A stretch of 64,000 nucleotides of DNA from Escherichia coli O157:H7. Its GTDB lineage: Bacteria; Pseudomonadota; Gammaproteobacteria; Enterobacterales; Enterobacteriaceae. Positions 54,175-57,142 of the stretch are shown piece after piece. The position numbers and the translations under genes were made by a program. The notes below the pieces were generated by a model, which made no database searches, had not been told where the DNA came from, and was given only the letters and a program-made list of their open reading frames with translations. The DNA lies in NCBI RefSeq assembly GCF_013167455.1, contig NZ_CP038328.1; one strand, written 5' to 3'. Position 1 is the stretch's first letter, and each line of letters opens with the position of its first letter.

Positions 54175-55080
54175 TTACCAGCGACCGGACGCGCCGCCAC
54201 CGCCAGAAGAACCGCCCCCGCCGCTAAATCCGCCGCCTGAGCCTCCGCCACTTGAGCCGCCACCGGAAGAGGATGAAGAAGAACCTTTTCTTGAAGCTCT
54301 ATCTTTACTGAGTTTTTTGTATTTGGCGCGTAGCTTTTTATTGACGATAAGCCAAAAAATAACCAGTGGTACGATCGCAAAAGGCGTTAACATACCGCAG
54401 GCAACGATTAAATTGGTCCATGGTCCTGGCTCGGCAACATAGAGGAATACCATCCCGTAAATGGCGCCAGTGAGAGTGATCCAGGGTAAATTCGACGGAT
54501 CGGTAAAAACAATAAAATATGAAAGTACCGCCAGCAATATAATTACAGCAAGCGATAATGGAATAGGGGGATTGATACTGTAATAATCCCCCCTGTCTTC
54601 CGGTAATTCACCATTCAACAGAAGCGCGCCGATATTTTCGCTTGCCAGTGTTAATCCACCCATCAGGTCATCACTTTTGAAGGCAGGGATCAATATATCC
54701 CTGATAATCTTCGCCGCTTGCAGGTCGGTAACCACCCCTTCCAGCCCGTAGCCAACCTCAATACGAACAGCATGATCCTCCCAGGCAACCAGAAGTAAAA
54801 TACCATCGTTTCTCTGCTTATCTCCCAGTTTCCAGCTATCAAAAACCCTTGTAGCATATTGTTCAATGGAATCGTCTCCGGTGGACGGCACTACTAATAC
54901 AGCGACCTGCGCCCGTGTTTTATGTGTAATATCCTGCAGTTGCTGTGTCAGTGATTGTTGTTCAGAAGTGCTTAACGTACCAGTAATATCGGTCACCTGT
55001 TGGCGCAGTTCCGGCACAGCAATTTGCTGGGCAAGCCCAGGAAGGCACCACAAAGTGAATAGAATAAAGATTAAGCGCAT
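54175..55080 (-). CDS. ygcG: TPM-domain membrane protein with Gly/Ser-rich C-terminal tail (eno-proximal paralog)
   Basis: About 301 aa from ATG 55078-55080; signal peptide MRLIFILFTLWCLPGLA; TPM-domain-like core; predicted TM helices; C-terminus ..FSGGGGSSGGGGASGRW; symbol assignment tentative. Confidence 0.75.
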   Translation of the reverse strand: MRLIFILFTLWCLPGLAQQIAVPELRQQVTDITGTLSTSEQQSLTQQLQDITHKTRAQVAVLVVPSTGDDSIEQYATRVFDSWKLGDKQRNDGILLLVAWEDHAVRIEVGYGLEGVVTDLQAAKIIRDILIPAFKSDDLMGGLTLASENIGALLLNGELPEDRGDYYSINPPIPLSLAVIILLAVLSYFIVFTDPSNLPWITLTGAIYGMVFLYVAEPGPWTNLIVACGMLTPFAIVPLVIFWLIVNKKLRAKYKKLSKDRASRKGSSSSSSGGGSSGGGSGGGFSGGGGSSGGGGASGRW

Positions 55081-55085
55081 TACGA

Positions 55086-56234
55086 TCACCAACGGACGGA
55101 TGAACCGCCGCCTCCTGAAGAACCGCCACCACCGCGGAAAGAATTTCTCGACGAAGAGCGAGAATGAGCATTACGATTCCCCGTTTTCCTGTTGCTTTTT
55201 TCTCCTGACCCCAGCTTAAGATTGCCAGTAAATTTGGCCACAATGATCAGCAGAACGATGCCAGCAATGGTTATTGGGCCGATAAAATGATCAATTAACC
55301 CAATAATTGTTGAGATGAATGCAATATCTTTATTACTGGCGAACACCAGGCACCATCCCACAATAATTATCAGCATCACGACAAACAATGAATTTCGTCC
55401 TGATTCACGAACCTGCGGAGTCTTCTTTTGTTTTTTCACTTTAGCGTTTTTATTTTTTGGGGTCAGCATCATAGGAAATACGCGGCACATATTAAAAACT
55501 ACCGCGAGACGCTGCTTGCAGGTTGTTGCTAACAATAAACTAAAACAAACGACCGATACCCGCCGAATGATGACATCGTCCTGAAAGGAGAAAAACCAGA
55601 CCATAGGGGTAATCATCGATATCATCCATATGCCACGCCGTGGGCGGCTGGCAAATAGCCAGAGGACAACGATGGCAACGATCATCAGCAGTGTCCAGGC
55701 AAGACATGGCAGCGAACGTTGCGGATTAGCAAACAGATGATTGGCTAAAGCATCCAAAGGGCTAAGGTTCGCTTTGATATGGGTAAACTGTGCGATGCTT
55801 TCAATTCCGCCCGTTAATCCAGCAAAGAGATTGTTTTTTTCGAATTCTGGCTGCATATGGTAACGAACAATTTGCGCAGCTTGTTCCGGCGGCAACATCT
55901 CTTCCAGTCCATGTCCAATCTTCATTGACGCCAGCCCTTCCGGCCATACGACGAGAATTAAGATACCTTCGCCATATCGCTTCTCTCCAACGGGTTTCCA
56001 GTGATATACCCCGTATCTCTGCGAGGCTGCAAGTTTAATGTTTTTGCCCCCTGTGGTCGGCGTAACCAACACGGCCACCTGGAAGTGGTTTTGCTGCTCG
56101 AGAGTCTGTAATTGTTGAGTTAAAGCAGTTTGTTCTTCTGTCGTTAATGTCCCGGTTAAGTCAGTCACTGAAGGCAATCGTTCAGCGAATACCTGAAAAC
56201 CGCATAGCATCAGAAGTAAGAGAAAAATACGCAT
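55086..56234 (-). CDS. TPM-domain membrane protein, second paralog (longer multi-TM C-terminal half)
   Basis: 382-aa ORF; signal peptide MRIFLLLLMLCGFQVFA; TPM-like core; C-terminus ..RGGGGSSGGGGSSVRW; AAGGA before ATG. Confidence 0.75.
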   Translation of the reverse strand: MRIFLLLLMLCGFQVFAERLPSVTDLTGTLTTEEQTALTQQLQTLEQQNHFQVAVLVTPTTGGKNIKLAASQRYGVYHWKPVGEKRYGEGILILVVWPEGLASMKIGHGLEEMLPPEQAAQIVRYHMQPEFEKNNLFAGLTGGIESIAQFTHIKANLSPLDALANHLFANPQRSLPCLAWTLLMIVAIVVLWLFASRPRRGIWMISMITPMVWFFSFQDDVIIRRVSVVCFSLLLATTCKQRLAVVFNMCRVFPMMLTPKNKNAKVKKQKKTPQVRESGRNSLFVVMLIIIVGWCLVFASNKDIAFISTIIGLIDHFIGPITIAGIVLLIIVAKFTGNLKLGSGEKSNRKTGNRNAHSRSSSRNSFRGGGGSSGGGGSSVRW

Positions 56235-56248
56235 ATCAATTCCTTTTG

Positions 56249-57142
56249 TTACCAGCGCCCGGAAGCGCCACCGCCACCAGATGAACCGCCACCACCGCTA
56301 AAATTGTCATTGTCGAATGAAGAGGATGACGATGATGAATAGTGGGAGGAAGAATTGCTTCTTGTATGGCGTGATGGCTGGTTGGCATCACGCATCAAAT
56401 CCCGAACTTTTTTGCCGAAGGGGGTAAAAGCGATGGCGACAGCCAGGAACGGTGTGGCGAAGCAGAGTCATGTTGCGAGTACTCCCCAGCTTCCGCTGAA
56501 GCCTGCTATAGGTAAAACAAAGGCCAGTACAATAGCTGCGAAGCAAATTACTCCCAGCGTTTTGATATATCCTCTGGCAGAAATAAACGTCAGTACTATC
56601 GCCCAGACTAACAATGCCCACCAACCGCTAAAGGGCAAAGGGTGATCGGTCGGTGTTATCGTTGCTAAATTATTCCCCGTCAGACGACTTTCAATATCGC
56701 TGATTCCCTTTTGCAAACCACCAGCCAGGTCGCCTTTTTTAAATGCAGGAATAATACTGTTGCGAATAATTTTCCCGGACTGCGCATCCGTAATAATACC
56801 TTCCAGTCCGTAACCGATTTCAATACGCACGGTATGATCCTGCCAGGCGACTAACAGTAGAACGCCATCATCGCGGTCTTTATCACCCGGTTTCCAGCTA
56901 TCGAATACCCGCGTCGCGTACTGCTCGATGGTTTCATCGCCTGTTGTTTCAACCACTAACACGACCAACTGTGCGTAGTTTTTTTGCGTCAGGGCTTTAA
57001 TCTGGTTGGTCAGGGTGTTTACTTCGCTGTTTGTTAATGTGCCGGTTAAGTCATTCACATACTTGGGTGATTCAGGTACTGGAATTTGTGTGGCAAACAC
57101 AGATGAACAGAAGAAAGCCATAAGGAAGATAAAATTTCGCAT
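56249..57142 (-). pseudogene. TPM-domain membrane protein, third paralog, interrupted by in-frame TGA at 56468-56470
   Basis: ORF 57142..56471 (MRNFIFLMAFF.. signal peptide) continues in the same frame after the TGA for 72 codons to ..FSGGGGSSGGGGASGRW stop at 56249-56251; TGA lies inside a predicted TM segment. Confidence 0.7.

What the first reader, a model, noticed from the sequence alone, without database searches (positions are those of the whole stretch)
54178..56302. Shared C-terminal Gly/Ser tail ending in RW on all three TPM paralogs
The three paralogs end ..FSGGGGSSGGGGASGRW, ..RGGGGSSGGGGSSVRW and ..FSGGGGSSGGGGASGRW. The identical tails of paralogs 1 and 3 are encoded by different codons (for example CCAGCGACCGGACGC versus CCAGCGCCCGGAAGC on the given strand), so the motif is kept by selection on the protein rather than by recent gene conversion. 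It may be a sorting, tethering or recognition tag.
Basis: seen in the sequence. Interest (0 to 1): 0.4.

Follow-up and report, generated by a model that had tools for sequence, protein, structure and literature searches.

The report
Conserved glycine tail of TPM proteins
The shared Gly/Ser tail is the C-terminal signature of YgcG-type TPM membrane proteins across many bacterial phyla. Its last 17 residues co-vary with, and are predicted to dock onto, the protein's own TPM domain, even though the two should lie on opposite sides of the membrane, and phages carry the same tail on unrelated proteins.

Summary
The tails are real and sit at the stated coordinates. The window is an E. coli O157:H7-type locus, lemA-TPM3-TPM2-TPM1, on the minus strand between eno and queE. 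One correction: paralog 3 has an in-frame TGA (56468-56470), so its tail is not translated in this lineage.

P1 and P3 have identical 17-residue tails with 8 synonymous and 0 non-synonymous differences. This supports selection on the protein rather than gene conversion.

The conserved unit is not "RW". It is [FWY]-x-GGGG-x-[SF]-GGGG-A-S-G-x-W-COOH. W is invariant; R at -2 occurs in only 38% of relatives. A tail-less TPM query recovered the motif in about 110 of 150 diverse representatives. In cellular genomes it occurs almost only on TPM proteins next to LemA. In viral contigs it caps about 29 unrelated proteins, including tail-tube homologues.

It does not look like a sorting signal. AlphaFold places the last ~11 residues at pLDDT 87-97 only when the TPM domain is present. 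Tail positions -10 and -2 show position-specific swap covariation with TPM residues F80 and A104.

Best reading: a tethered peptide ligand of the TPM domain. Unresolved: signal peptide, an apparently odd TM count (1 in about 30% of relatives, 3 in P1) and flank charges put tail and domain on opposite membrane faces.

The Gly-rich extension is already noted in the literature. I found no description of the motif, the coupling or the phage copies.

The parts
54175..55089 (-). P1: long (YgcG/BA41-type) TPM protein with signal peptide, TPM domain, 3 TM helices, basic/Ser/Gly linker and C-terminal motif. RefSeq start is GTG at 55089; an ATG lies at 55080.
   Evidence: Pfam TPM_phosphatase E=2.9e-38, residues 29-152. 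RefSeq CDS WP_012779383. AF2 helices 175-193, 195-215, 220-257. Foldseek best hit 5ANP BA41, TM 0.91.
54178..54228 (-). P1 17-residue C-terminal motif FSGGGGSSGGGGASGRW (stop codon at 54175-54177).
   Evidence: AF2 pLDDT 87-97 for the last ~11 residues only when the TPM domain is present.
54229..54342 (-). P1 juxtamembrane basic cluster plus Ser/Gly linker: NKKLRAKYKKLSKDRASRKGSSSSSSGGGSSGGGSGGG.
   Evidence: AF2 pLDDT <50 for residues 257-284.
54841..54843 (-). P1 Phe80 codon (TPM HMM column 61, helix 72-83). This is the residue that swaps with tail position -10.
   Evidence: and coordinates. Tail S pairs with F/Y here in 89 of 91 sequences; tail F pairs with A/G/V in 116 of 121.
54769..54771 (-). 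P1 Ala104 codon (TPM HMM column 85, start of strand 104-110). This is the residue that swaps charge with tail position -2.
   Evidence: Tail R pairs with T/A here; tail D/G/S pairs with K/R.
55086..56234 (-). P2: divergent long TPM protein of 382 aa with a larger TM region. Its TGA stop overlaps the P1 GTG start (GTGA).
   Evidence: Pfam TPM E=2.1e-21.
55089..55139 (-). P2 C-terminal motif FRGGGGSSGGGGSSVRW, a degenerate copy with S at -5 and V at -3.
   Evidence: Position -3 is V, G or D in different E. coli strains.
56468..57142 (-). P3 as translated in this strain: signal peptide, TPM domain and the first TM segments, 224 aa, ending at the premature TGA (56468-56470).
   Evidence: Pfam TPM E=1.2e-40. 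RefSeq CDS WP_001243487. TTA to TGA versus intact alleles.
56249..56467 (-). Untranslated remainder of P3 (last TM, Ser-rich linker, motif at 56252-56302, original stop at 56249-56251).
   Evidence: Intact 297-aa alleles in L004 and L005.
57156..57776 (-). LemA family gene, first gene of the operon. Its N-terminus carries a lipobox-like LSGC.
   Evidence: Pfam LemA E=5.1e-48; translation. LemA is adjacent to tail-bearing TPM genes in about 89 of 109 genomic loci.
54141..54158 (.). GC-rich hairpin between the convergent eno and P1 genes; a likely bidirectional terminator closing the operon.
   Evidence: consensus scan only.

Best explanation
The tails are the C-terminal signature of the 'long' YgcG/BA41-type TPM proteins. 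The architecture is signal peptide, exported TPM domain, 1-5 TM helices, a disordered Gly/Ser/Arg-rich linker (median 49 aa), and then a 17-residue motif: [FWY]-x-GGGG-x-[SF]-GGGG-A-S-G-x-W-COOH.

The motif is not a sorting signal. It most likely works as a tethered peptide ligand that lies along the surface of a TPM domain of its own lineage (its own chain or a sister subunit).

Inferred contacts:
- The aromatic at -17 sits near the N-terminal VPxL segment (P1 residues 25-30).
- Position -10 sits against helix alpha2, at Phe80 in P1.
- Position -2 and the terminal Trp carboxylate sit near strand 104-110, at Ala104 in P1.
- The Gly runs would allow tight backbone-to-surface packing.

The 'R' of RW is a compensating residue. 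It is present when the TPM domain lacks K/R at the Ala104 position.

In this window P1 carries a canonical copy and P2 a degenerate one. The P3 copy is silenced by a nonsense mutation.

Shown: conservation, purifying selection, restriction to TPM/LemA operons in cells, position-specific covariation, and dependence of the AF2 confidence on the TPM domain.

Inferred: physical docking, the contact map, and when or where docking occurs. The predicted topology separates tail (cytoplasm) from TPM domain (periplasm). Docking may therefore occur only in the un-exported state, as a latch on mislocalised TPM, or the topology may be unconventional.
For: 1. Family-wide, unbiased conservation.
- A TPM-domain query without the tail returned 150 representatives (each standing for a 50%-identity cluster). 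109 end in W and 94 match GGG[AGS][ST]G.W$. Most of the rest look like fragments or frameshifts.
- Position profile.

2. Purifying selection.
- P1 vs P3 tail: 17/17 identical, 8 synonymous and 0 non-synonymous changes, against saturated dS elsewhere.

3. Structure prediction.
- AF2 of full-length P1 (80-sequence MSA): linker pLDDT <50, but the last ~11 residues reach 87-97 with beta contacts.
- AF2 of residues 158-301 alone: the same residues fall to about 50 with no structure.
- The confident placement therefore depends on residues 1-157.

4. Covariation in 213-218 relatives (filtered at 80% TPM-domain identity).
- Tail -10 = S pairs with column 61 = F/Y (89 of 91); tail -10 = F pairs with A/G/V (116 of 121). 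F+aromatic occurs 0 times and S+small 2 times. MI 0.74, z=42. The next-best columns, 57 and 58, lie on the same helix.
- Tail -2 basic and column 85 basic are nearly mutually exclusive (3 of 217 have both).

5. Specificity controls.
- Column 61 is not predicted by linker F, S or G content (MI <=0.07 vs 0.58) or by the aromatic at -17 (0.000).
- Column 85 is not predicted by basic residues at -11 or -16, or by linker K/R content (<=0.025 vs 0.28).

6. Phylogenetic spread.
- Both states occur within Alpha- and Gammaproteobacteria, Bacteroidota, PVC, Delta and Nitrospira/Acidobacteria groups, and the rule holds in each.
- Parsimony on a tree built without those columns gives about 18 coincident switches.

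7. Distribution in cells.
- 111 of 121 ORFs ending in the motif carry a TPM domain. 9 of the other 10 are cut by contig ends.
- LemA is adjacent in about 89 of 109 loci.
Against: 1. Topology.
- P1 has a Sec-type signal peptide, three AF2-predicted TM helices, and 8 K/R residues directly after the last helix.
- About 30% of relatives have an unambiguous single TM.
- Tails are net positive in 168 of 224 sequences, with D/E density 0.04 versus 0.166 on the periplasmic flank.
- The mature tail should therefore be cytoplasmic and the TPM domain periplasmic.

The docking site is inferred by elimination (vs 68) and from covariation. The control MSA was also shallower (45 vs 80 sequences).

3. AF2 ignores membranes.

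4. Motif carriers without a TPM domain or a signal peptide exist: phage proteins and two small proteins in the L035 LemA operon. They should be cytoplasmic.

5. Covariation on related sequences can be inflated by shared ancestry, despite the controls.

6. There are no experimental data on the tail.
Confidence: 0.55

Rival explanations
1. The tail is a cytoplasmic docking tag for a different conserved partner, such as a membrane-proximal adaptor, a protease like FtsH, LemA, or the short cytoplasmic TPM paralog. It would work like the linker-plus-tip design of SSB or FtsZ. On this view the AF2 self-docking and the covariation are indirect.
For: - The topology inference puts the tail in the cytoplasm.
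- Soluble and N-terminally anchored motif carriers without a TPM domain exist in phage contigs and in the L035 operon.
- Canonical operons encode a signal-peptide-less short TPM protein next to the tail-bearing one.
- An invariant extreme C-terminal residue fits recognition of a free carboxylate.
Against: - The covarying residues lie in the tail-bearing protein's own TPM domain.
- The short paralog has F at column 61 in 46 of 46 cases, whatever the tail type.
- The E. coli locus and K-12 (ygcG alone) lack the short paralog, yet keep the tail.
- No candidate partner gene other than LemA or TPM was identified. Neighbouring genes were scanned only for these two families.
- The AF2 confidence disappears without the TPM domain.
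Confidence: 0.2
2. The motif drives self-association of tails. Aromatic-spaced glycine loops, or polyglycine-II-type packing as in Gly-rich phage adhesin domains, would cluster the membrane proteins or phage subunits.
For: - Three aromatic positions (-17, -10, -1) are separated by Gly4 runs.
- Linkers are often FG- or RGG-like.
- The motif is present on oligomeric phage tail-tube homologues.
Against: - The tail alone with the TM region is predicted disordered, pLDDT about 50. A single-chain model cannot, however, test oligomers.
- Self-association does not explain position-specific covariation with TPM residues.
- No PDB sequence matches the motif.
Confidence: 0.07
3. The tail is a generic low-complexity spacer or entropic bristle (or a poorly gripped Gly-rich end that resists AAA+ proteases), with no sequence-specific partner.
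For: - The linker is compositionally variable (G/S/R/F/D) and ranges from 19 to 160 aa.
- The literature describes it only as a low-complexity or glycine-rich region.
Against: - The last 17 positions are conserved position by position across phyla: G 88-100%, S(-4) 99%, W(-1) 100%.
- dN is 0 between ancient paralogs.
- Phage proteins reproduce the exact motif rather than just the composition.
Confidence: 0.05
4. The tail is a sorting, secretion or anchoring signal. Examples would be a sortase/exosortase-type tag or an OMP-like C-terminal aromatic signal.
For: - The position at the extreme C-terminus is invariant and ends in an aromatic residue.
- All 120 sampled genomic hits come from diderm phyla or CPR bacteria.
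Against: - No hydrophobic helix or basic cluster follows the motif.
- In cellular genomes the motif sits on one family only (111 of 112 evaluable), whereas sorting tags decorate many families.
- It follows TM helices with a K/R-rich flank, so it is probably not in the periplasm.
- The operon scan, which searched only for LemA and TPM, turned up no processing enzyme.
Confidence: 0.04
5. The similarity is maintained at the DNA level, by gene conversion between paralogs or by a GC-rich repeat acting as a recombination junction, rather than by protein function.
For: - K-12-type ygcG alleles match the O157-type locus by megablast only over window 54100-54246 (eno 3' end, terminator and the last 23 codons plus stop of P1) at 94%.
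- One strain (L005) has a chimeric P1 with an O157-type N-terminus and a K-12-type C-terminal half. Allele exchange at this locus is therefore real.
Against: - The P1 and P3 tails differ at 8 of 51 nucleotides, all synonymous; P2 differs at 13-14.
- The motif is conserved at the protein level, with different codons, across a dozen phyla and in phages spanning 28-67% GC.
Confidence: 0.02

Closest known systems
BA41 of Bizionia argentinensis / E. coli YgcG (COG1512, 'long' TPM_phosphatase PF04536 proteins)
   Same: - Same architecture and, for BA41, the same motif. The 5ANP SEQRES ends GGGFGGGFGGGGFGGGGASGGW.
- K-12 YgcG ends FSGGGGSSGGGGASGRW.
- The best structural match of the P1 model is the BA41 TPM domain: TM 0.91, rmsd 1.8 A.
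- From my own recollection of the BA41 paper abstract (Cerutti et al. 2017, not held in the library), the region is described as a 'C-terminal cytoplasmic low complexity region'.
   Different: - Only the TPM domain is resolved in 5ANP (145 residues).
- No function, motif definition or partner has been assigned to the tail.
- The O157-type locus is unusual in having three tail-bearing paralogs after LemA and no short cytoplasmic TPM partner.
Psb32 / TLP18.3 (photosystem II assembly/repair TPM proteins)
   Same: - Exported (lumenal) TPM domain, linker and a C-terminal TM helix.
- Structural similarity to 3PVH and 8C7I.
[quoted passage not shown]
   Different: - Psb32 lacks the tail.
- The window proteins score 31-35 bits against NF047379, whose cut-off is 160.
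- Psb32 uses its TM helix and domain to bind PSII subunits.
Linker-plus-tip C-terminal peptide ligands (SSB C-terminal tip, FtsZ C-terminal peptide, PDZ-type C-terminal ligands, autoinhibitory tails)
   Same: - A disordered low-complexity linker ends in a short invariant peptide whose last residue is fixed.
- Phage-encoded proteins carry copies of the same peptide, as phage SSBs copy the host tip (the SSB comparison is from general knowledge).
   Different: - The apparent receptor here is the protein's own extracytoplasmic domain, across the membrane from the tail.
- The motif is Gly-dominated rather than acidic or hydrophobic.
- No binding has been measured.
C-terminal sorting signals (LPXTG, PEP-CTERM, GlyGly-CTERM) and the OMP C-terminal aromatic signal
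   Same: Fixed position at the C-terminus, a Gly-containing signature and an aromatic last residue.
   Different: - No TM helix or basic cluster follows the motif.
- A single carrier family in cells.
- Likely cytoplasmic location.
- See the membership tests.

Membership tests
Long YgcG/BA41-type TPM proteins (PF04536 + C-terminal Gly-rich extension; COG1512) | TPM (TLP18.3/Psb32/MOLO-1) domain | tested here: met
   Pfam PF04536: P1 131 bits, P2 76.6 bits, P3 138.9 bits, against a cut-off of 22.1. Foldseek to 5ANP, 7TBR and 3PVH.
Long YgcG/BA41-type TPM proteins (PF04536 + C-terminal Gly-rich extension; COG1512) | N-terminal export signal preceding the TPM domain | tested here: met
   By inspection only; no signal-peptide predictor was available. 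P1 begins MRLIFILFTLWCLPGLAQ|Q; P2 and P3 are similar. An N-terminal hydrophobic segment is present in 191 of 224 relatives.
Long YgcG/BA41-type TPM proteins (PF04536 + C-terminal Gly-rich extension; COG1512) | One or more TM helices between the TPM domain and the tail | tested here: met
   AF2 helices 175-193, 195-215 and 220-257 in P1. Hydropathy scan of 224 relatives; exact counts from that scan are unreliable.
Long YgcG/BA41-type TPM proteins (PF04536 + C-terminal Gly-rich extension; COG1512) | Gly-rich C-terminal extension ending ...GGGG-A-S-G-x-W | tested here: met
   P1 is canonical. P2 is a variant (SSVRW). P3 is encoded but lies downstream of a premature TGA.
Long YgcG/BA41-type TPM proteins (PF04536 + C-terminal Gly-rich extension; COG1512) | LemA gene in the same operon | tested here: met
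   LemA PF04011, 163 bits, at 57156-57776. LemA is adjacent in about 89 of 109 genomic loci.
Psb32/TLP18.3 PSII assembly factors | Score at or above the NCBIfam NF047379 equivalog cut-off (160 bits) | tested here: not met
   31.1 and 35.0 bits.
Psb32/TLP18.3 PSII assembly factors | Tail-anchored by a single C-terminal TM helix with no Gly-rich extension | tested here: not met
   All three paralogs encode the extension. The preprint contrasts Psb32 with such homologues.
C-terminal sorting signals (LPXTG / PEP-CTERM / GlyGly-CTERM type) | Signature motif followed by a hydrophobic helix and a basic cluster at the extreme C-terminus | tested here: not met
   The proteins end at W directly after the motif; the TM helices lie 19-160 aa upstream.
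C-terminal sorting signals (LPXTG / PEP-CTERM / GlyGly-CTERM type) | Tag shared by many unrelated protein families within a genome | tested here: not met
   In a pattern scan of genome contigs, 111 of 121 carriers are TPM proteins, 9 are truncated by contig ends, and 1 is a 41-aa ORF.
C-terminal sorting signals (LPXTG / PEP-CTERM / GlyGly-CTERM type) | Dedicated processing enzyme (sortase, exosortase or rhombosortase) co-occurring | not tested
   Neighbouring genes were screened only for LemA and TPM.
Tethered C-terminal peptide ligands (linker + tip) | Disordered linker ending in an invariant terminal peptide | tested here: met
   Linker pLDDT <50. Motif profile with W(-1) 100%, S(-4) 99% and G 88-100%.
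Tethered C-terminal peptide ligands (linker + tip) | The tip binds a folded receptor domain | tested here: inconclusive
   AF2 confidence depends on the TPM domain (vs 68). Position-specific swap covariation supports contact. No coordinates and no binding data were available.
Tethered C-terminal peptide ligands (linker + tip) | Tip and receptor share a compartment | tested here: not met
   The predicted topology puts them on opposite faces: signal peptide, 1 or 3 TM helices, and a K/R-rich post-TM flank. This rests on prediction only.

The most novel reading that the evidence does not exclude
The 17-residue tail and its receptor, the TPM domain of the same protein, are deliberately placed on opposite sides of the inner membrane. 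Two readings follow. In the first, docking happens only when the TPM domain has not been exported, so the tail is a built-in latch that reports or neutralises mislocalised TPM. In the second, the Gly-rich tail reaches the periplasm by an undescribed route. In either case, phages would have copied the 17-mer onto tail-tube-like, virion and small Zn-ribbon proteins to engage host TPM domains. Phage copies usually have D/E at -2, which would pair with the K/R found at TPM column 85.
Probability: 0.25. Interest if true: 0.8.

Novelty: new variant of a known kind. Interest (0 to 1): 0.5.

Why it matters
TPM-domain and LemA proteins are among the most widespread bacterial envelope proteins without an agreed function. 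Proposals range from phosphatase or ATPase to assembly chaperone, and the family includes relatives of the PSII assembly factor Psb32.

If the conserved tail is the cognate ligand of the TPM domain, three things follow:
- The conserved TPM surface is a peptide-binding site rather than, or as well as, a catalytic one.
- Psb32's loss of the tail would have freed that site for other clients, as the Psb32 preprint speculates.
- Simple swap mutants (F80/S-10 and A104/R-2) give a direct experimental handle.

The apparent separation of ligand and receptor by the membrane is a concrete, testable puzzle. The presence of the exact motif on unrelated phage proteins suggests a host-phage interface that I found no description of in the searches I ran.

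For this window specifically, the result is more modest: a family hallmark, with one of the three copies inactivated in the O157:H7 lineage.

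Tried and rejected
- **Protein search with the tail alone.** The first attempt was rejected as too short. A 45-aa Gly-rich query then returned 1242 candidates, none scoring, because of the composition filter. I replaced it with a back-translated DNA pattern scan.
- **PDB sequence search with the tail.** No hit. 5ANP lists the full-length BA41 sequence, but only 145 residues are resolved.
- **TM counting by a home-made hydropathy scan.** Unreliable: it TM helices for P1 where AF2 and inspection give 3. Parity could therefore be settled only for the single-TM class and for P1.
- **The short cytoplasmic TPM paralog as the tail's receptor.** Rejected as the covarying partner, because its column 61 is F in 46 of 46 cases.
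- **Tandem-TPM proteins as a clue to a cytoplasmic TPM.** Both domains precede the TM region.
- **Anti-phage defence membership.** No PADLOC hit for LemA or the TPM proteins.
- **Family models for the tail.** No Pfam, NCBIfam or PHROG model covers it. The only overlap is a sub-threshold YxzE hit: 21.8 bits against a cut-off of 40.
- **Literature.** No paper containing 'GGGGASG' concerns this motif. Searches on TPM/LemA/DUF477/COG1512 found only passing mentions of a low-complexity or Gly-rich extension.
- **Resemblance to colicin TolB-box or Gly-rich translocation regions, and to FtsZ/tubulin GGGTGSG loops.** Considered from memory and not pursued. Nothing in the data points to them, and the covariation points to the TPM domain.
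- **Model coordinates.** Not exposed by the tools, so no contact map could be read.

Full report
**Context**

The window is 100% identical to an E. coli chromosome of the O157:H7/O55:H7 type over 54100-57750. Between eno (+, 52817-54115) and queE (+, 57931-58602) lies a four-gene operon on the minus strand:
- LemA: 57156-57776
- P3: 56249-57142
- P2: 55086-56234
- P1: 54175-55089

The operon is closed by a GC-rich hairpin shared with eno. All three P genes have a Pfam TPM_phosphatase domain (E = 1e-40, 2e-21, 3e-38), and the first gene is a LemA family protein. About 1101 of 5426 complete E. coli genomes carry most of this locus. K-12-type strains have only ygcG plus the small gene yqcG at this position.

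**Observation check**

The P1 and P3 tails are identical over 17 residues but differ at 8 of 51 nucleotides, all synonymous (pS 0.55, dN 0). By contrast, their TPM domains are 60% identical with saturated synonymous sites (pS 0.78), and their TM regions are 25% identical.

Two corrections are needed.

First, P3 contains an in-frame TGA at 56468-56470, where intact alleles have TTA (Leu).
- RefSeq annotates a 224-aa product, so in this strain the third tail is not translated.
- The exact 61-mer around the TGA is present in 299 of 5426 genomes, and the sampled ones are O157:H7. It is therefore a lineage mutation and not a sequencing error.

Second, the motif is not defined by 'RW' (see the next section).

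**Family-wide conservation**

To avoid selecting for the tail, I searched 1.84 billion cluster representatives with the TPM domain of P1 only.
- 21,874 representatives matched at E<=1e-3.
- Among the best 150, 109 end in W and 94 match GGG[AGS][ST]G.W$.
- Most of the others look like truncated or frame-shifted predictions.

| Position | Residues in 108 tail-bearing proteins |
|---|---|
| -17 | aromatic 72% |
| -15 to -12 | G 88-100% |
| -11 | variable |
| -10 | S 62% or F 35% |
| -9 to -6 | G 89-100% |
| -5 | A 89% |
| -4 | S 99% |
| -3 | G 88% |
| -2 | variable: R 38%, S 35%, G 11% |
| -1 | W 100% |

No Pfam, NCBIfam or PHROG model covers this segment.

**Distribution**

I back-translated GGGG-A-[ST]-G-x-W-stop into a DNA pattern and scanned two collections.

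- 111 of 121 ORFs ending in the motif carry a TPM domain.
- 9 of the remaining 10 are cut by contig ends.
- The hosts span Alpha-, Beta- and Gammaproteobacteria, Desulfobacterota/Myxococcota, Bacteroidota, Chlorobi/Ignavibacteria, the PVC group, Nitrospirota/Nitrospinota, Acidobacteriota, Omnitrophota, Selenomonadales and CPR lineages.
- None is from Actinomycetota, monoderm Bacillota or Cyanobacteria.

In viral contigs the picture inverts:
- Of 58 ORFs, only 13 have a TPM domain. These mostly sit next to LemA and are probably host-like operons.
- About 40 ORFs, representing about 29 distinct proteins, do not.
- They include a Phage_T4_gp19 tail-tube homologue (35 bits, cut-off 28.2), other PHROG tail-tube and virion-structural matches, a 949-aa protein, and many 56-130-aa proteins. 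Several of the small proteins start with an N-terminal CxxC...CxxC motif, followed by a short amphipathic helix and an acidic/Ser-rich linker.
- Positions -10 to -17, which the pattern did not constrain, follow the same profile. These are therefore true copies of the motif.

**Operon context**

In 109 genomic loci the common arrangements are LemA-TPM* (40), LemA-TPM-TPM* (20) and LemA-TPM*-TPM (20), where * marks the tail-bearing gene.

The tail-less partner is a short TPM protein of 141-250 aa without a signal peptide. It ends in a conserved ...HFP...NELP[DN] segment and corresponds to the BA42 type. The E. coli O157-type operon is atypical: three tail-bearing exported paralogs and no short partner.

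**Topology**

- P1 has a Sec-type signal peptide.
- AF2 predicts three TM helices (175-193, 195-215, 220-257).
- These are followed by NKKLRAKYKKLSKDRASRK.
- About 30% of relatives have one unambiguous TM helix.
- Tails are net positive in 168 of 224 sequences and poor in D/E: 0.04 versus 0.166 on the periplasmic flank.

By standard rules the TPM domain is periplasmic and the tail cytoplasmic. My recollection of the BA41 paper is that it predicted the same; that paper is not in the library.

**Structure prediction**

AF2 on full-length P1 with an 80-sequence alignment gave:
- TPM domain: pLDDT 96-98
- TM helices: 70-76
- Linker: below 50
- Last ~11 residues: 87-97, with beta-type contacts

I then predicted residues 158-301 alone, using a 45-sequence alignment cut from the same family. 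The helices stayed, but the tail fell to about 50 with no secondary structure. The confident placement therefore requires residues 1-157, meaning the TPM domain.

**Covariation**

I aligned 213-218 tail-bearing relatives (filtered at 80% TPM-domain identity) to a TPM HMM and anchored the tails at the C-terminus.

Tail position -10 and TPM column 61 (P1 Phe80, three residues before the invariant Trp83):
- S at -10 goes with F/Y at column 61 in 89 of 91 sequences.
- F at -10 goes with A/G/V in 116 of 121.
- F+aromatic never occurs.
- MI is 0.74 (z=42). The next-best columns, 57 and 58, lie on the same helix.

Tail position -2 and column 85 (P1 Ala104):
- R at -2 goes with T/A.
- D/G/S at -2 goes with K/R.
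- Both are basic in only 3 of 217 sequences.

Tail position -17 covaries more weakly with columns 6, 9 and 11, the N-terminal VPxL segment.

Controls:
- Column 61 is not predicted by linker F, S or G content (MI <=0.07 vs 0.58) or by the -17 aromatic (0.000). The rule has no exceptions in linkers with no F or in linkers with at least 10% F.
- Column 85 is not predicted by basic residues at -11 or -16, or by linker K/R content.
- Both tail types occur within several phyla, and the rule holds in each.
- On an NJ tree built without the tested columns, the joint character needs no more changes than the tail alone, with about 18 switches of column 61.
- The short cytoplasmic paralog always has F at column 61 (46 of 46), so it is not the covarying partner.

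These are aromatic-swap and charge-swap patterns of the kind expected for direct contact. They also explain why E. coli has R before the terminal W: its TPM domains have A at column 85.

**Interpretation and the open problem**

The simplest reading of the AF2 and covariation results is that the 17-mer is a tethered ligand lying on the TPM domain of its own lineage. The simplest reading of the topology evidence is that the two are separated by the inner membrane. I could not reconcile them. Four possibilities remain:
- (a) Docking occurs only in un-exported molecules, as a latch.
- (b) The tail reaches the periplasm by an unconventional route, or the hydrophobic segments do not all span the membrane.
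- (c) The coupling is indirect.
- (d) Insertion in both orientations, which I consider unlikely given the signal peptide.

The L035 locus adds to the puzzle. It contains a LemA, an 84-aa acidic soluble motif carrier, a 78-aa N-terminally anchored carrier, and a signal-peptide TPM protein with the motif. This shows the motif can be supplied in trans by proteins that should be cytoplasmic.

**Comparison with what is known**

These are members of the YgcG/BA41 long TPM family.
- Foldseek's best hit is the BA41 TPM domain, TM 0.91.
- BA41's deposited sequence ends in the same motif.
- A Gly-rich or low-complexity C-terminal extension has been mentioned in passing by Ravi et al. 2024 for YdjH and by the Psb32 preprint, which notes that bacterial homologues carry it and Psb32 lacks it.
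- I found no description of the motif itself, its coupling to the TPM domain, or its presence on phage proteins.

The tail fails the defining features of sortase-type sorting signals and of Psb32 equivalogs (see membership tests). It works most like linker-plus-tip C-terminal ligands, with the unusual twist of a self-receptor on the other side of the membrane.

**Verdict**

The finding is real and under strong purifying selection, but as stated it is a family hallmark rather than a peculiarity of these three genes. One of the three copies is dead in this lineage. Any wider interest lies in what the follow-up uncovered: the TPM-tail coupling, the topological paradox, and the phage copies. All of these rest on prediction and comparative analysis and need the experiments listed above.

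Noticed in passing
window 56468-56470 (P3): TTA to TGA nonsense mutation truncates the third TPM paralog to 224 aa. The exact 61-mer is in 299 of 5426 complete E. coli genomes (sampled ones are O157:H7); 493 others differ at 1-2 positions, and the two intact alleles inspected (L004, L005) have TTA and give 297 aa.
   Followed up: yes
window 54100-57750 versus L002, L003, L005: The eno-queE interval is highly polymorphic in E. coli.
- K-12 type: ygcG plus the 46-aa yqcG.
- Another type: LemA, a truncated TPM pseudogene and a 120-aa hypothetical.
- O157 type: LemA plus three TPM genes.

K-12-type genomes match the window by megablast only over 54100-54246 (eno end, terminator and the tail-coding 3' end of P1) at 94%. 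Strain SCU-125 has a chimeric P1, O157-like at the N-terminus and K-12-like in the C-terminal half. The tail-coding DNA may act as a recombination junction.
   Followed up: partly
L006-L060 (viral contigs), e.g. L042 1222-2046+, L039, L038, L010, L036, L046: The exact 17-residue motif caps about 29 distinct non-TPM phage proteins. These include T4 gp19-family tail-tube homologues, a virion structural protein, a 949-aa protein and many 56-130-aa proteins, several starting with an N-terminal CxxC...CxxC motif, built as amphipathic helix, acidic/Ser linker, motif. Position -2 is usually D or E.
   Followed up: partly
L035 3873-6520 (480-kb contig labelled viral): One LemA operon contains three motif carriers:
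- an 84-aa acidic soluble protein (4621-4875),
- a 78-aa protein with only an N-terminal TM helix (5011-5247),
- a signal-peptide TPM protein with a long charged segment before the motif.

The LemA here also has a lipobox-like VVGC.
   Followed up: partly
L063-L180, tail-less TPM ORFs (e.g. L102 1493-1930+, L128 9780-10217-): Canonical LemA operons encode a second, short TPM protein without a signal peptide (BA42 type). It ends in its own conserved C-terminal segment, ...HFP(x)n-NELP[DN]xI. Gammaproteobacterial versions have two TM helices inserted after the first strand. The function of that C-terminal motif was not examined.
   Followed up: no
window 57700-57776 (LemA N-terminus): The E. coli LemA begins ...LRIFIVIIFIFNLSGCGYN, which has a lipobox-like LSGC. 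This suggests a lipoprotein with a periplasmic LemA domain. The annotated start is a non-ATG codon.
   Followed up: no
window 55086-55092: The P2 stop (TGA) overlaps the annotated P1 GTG start (GTGA), and an ATG lies 9 nt downstream. The LemA-P3 and P3-P2 gaps are 13-14 nt. This is a tightly coupled operon.
   Followed up: no
L061-L180 (record titles): All 120 sampled genomic carriers of the strict motif come from diderm phyla or CPR bacteria. None is from Actinomycetota, monoderm Bacillota or Cyanobacteria.
   Followed up: partly
L134 1882-1911- (Deltaproteobacteria MAG): The only evaluable cellular ORF ending in the motif without a TPM domain is a 41-aa ORF (…SSFSGGGGASGGW). It could be a small protein or a gene remnant.
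   Followed up: no
L002 5102-5241 (K-12 queE / yqcG-ygcG intergenic): A published sigma-S ChIP-seq study lists a peak between queE and ygcG/yqcG, described there as a small cell-envelope-stress protein (PMC4447067). CRISPR arrays are annotated just downstream of queE in L002 and L003. The equivalent part of the window (after 58602) was not inspected.
   Followed up: no
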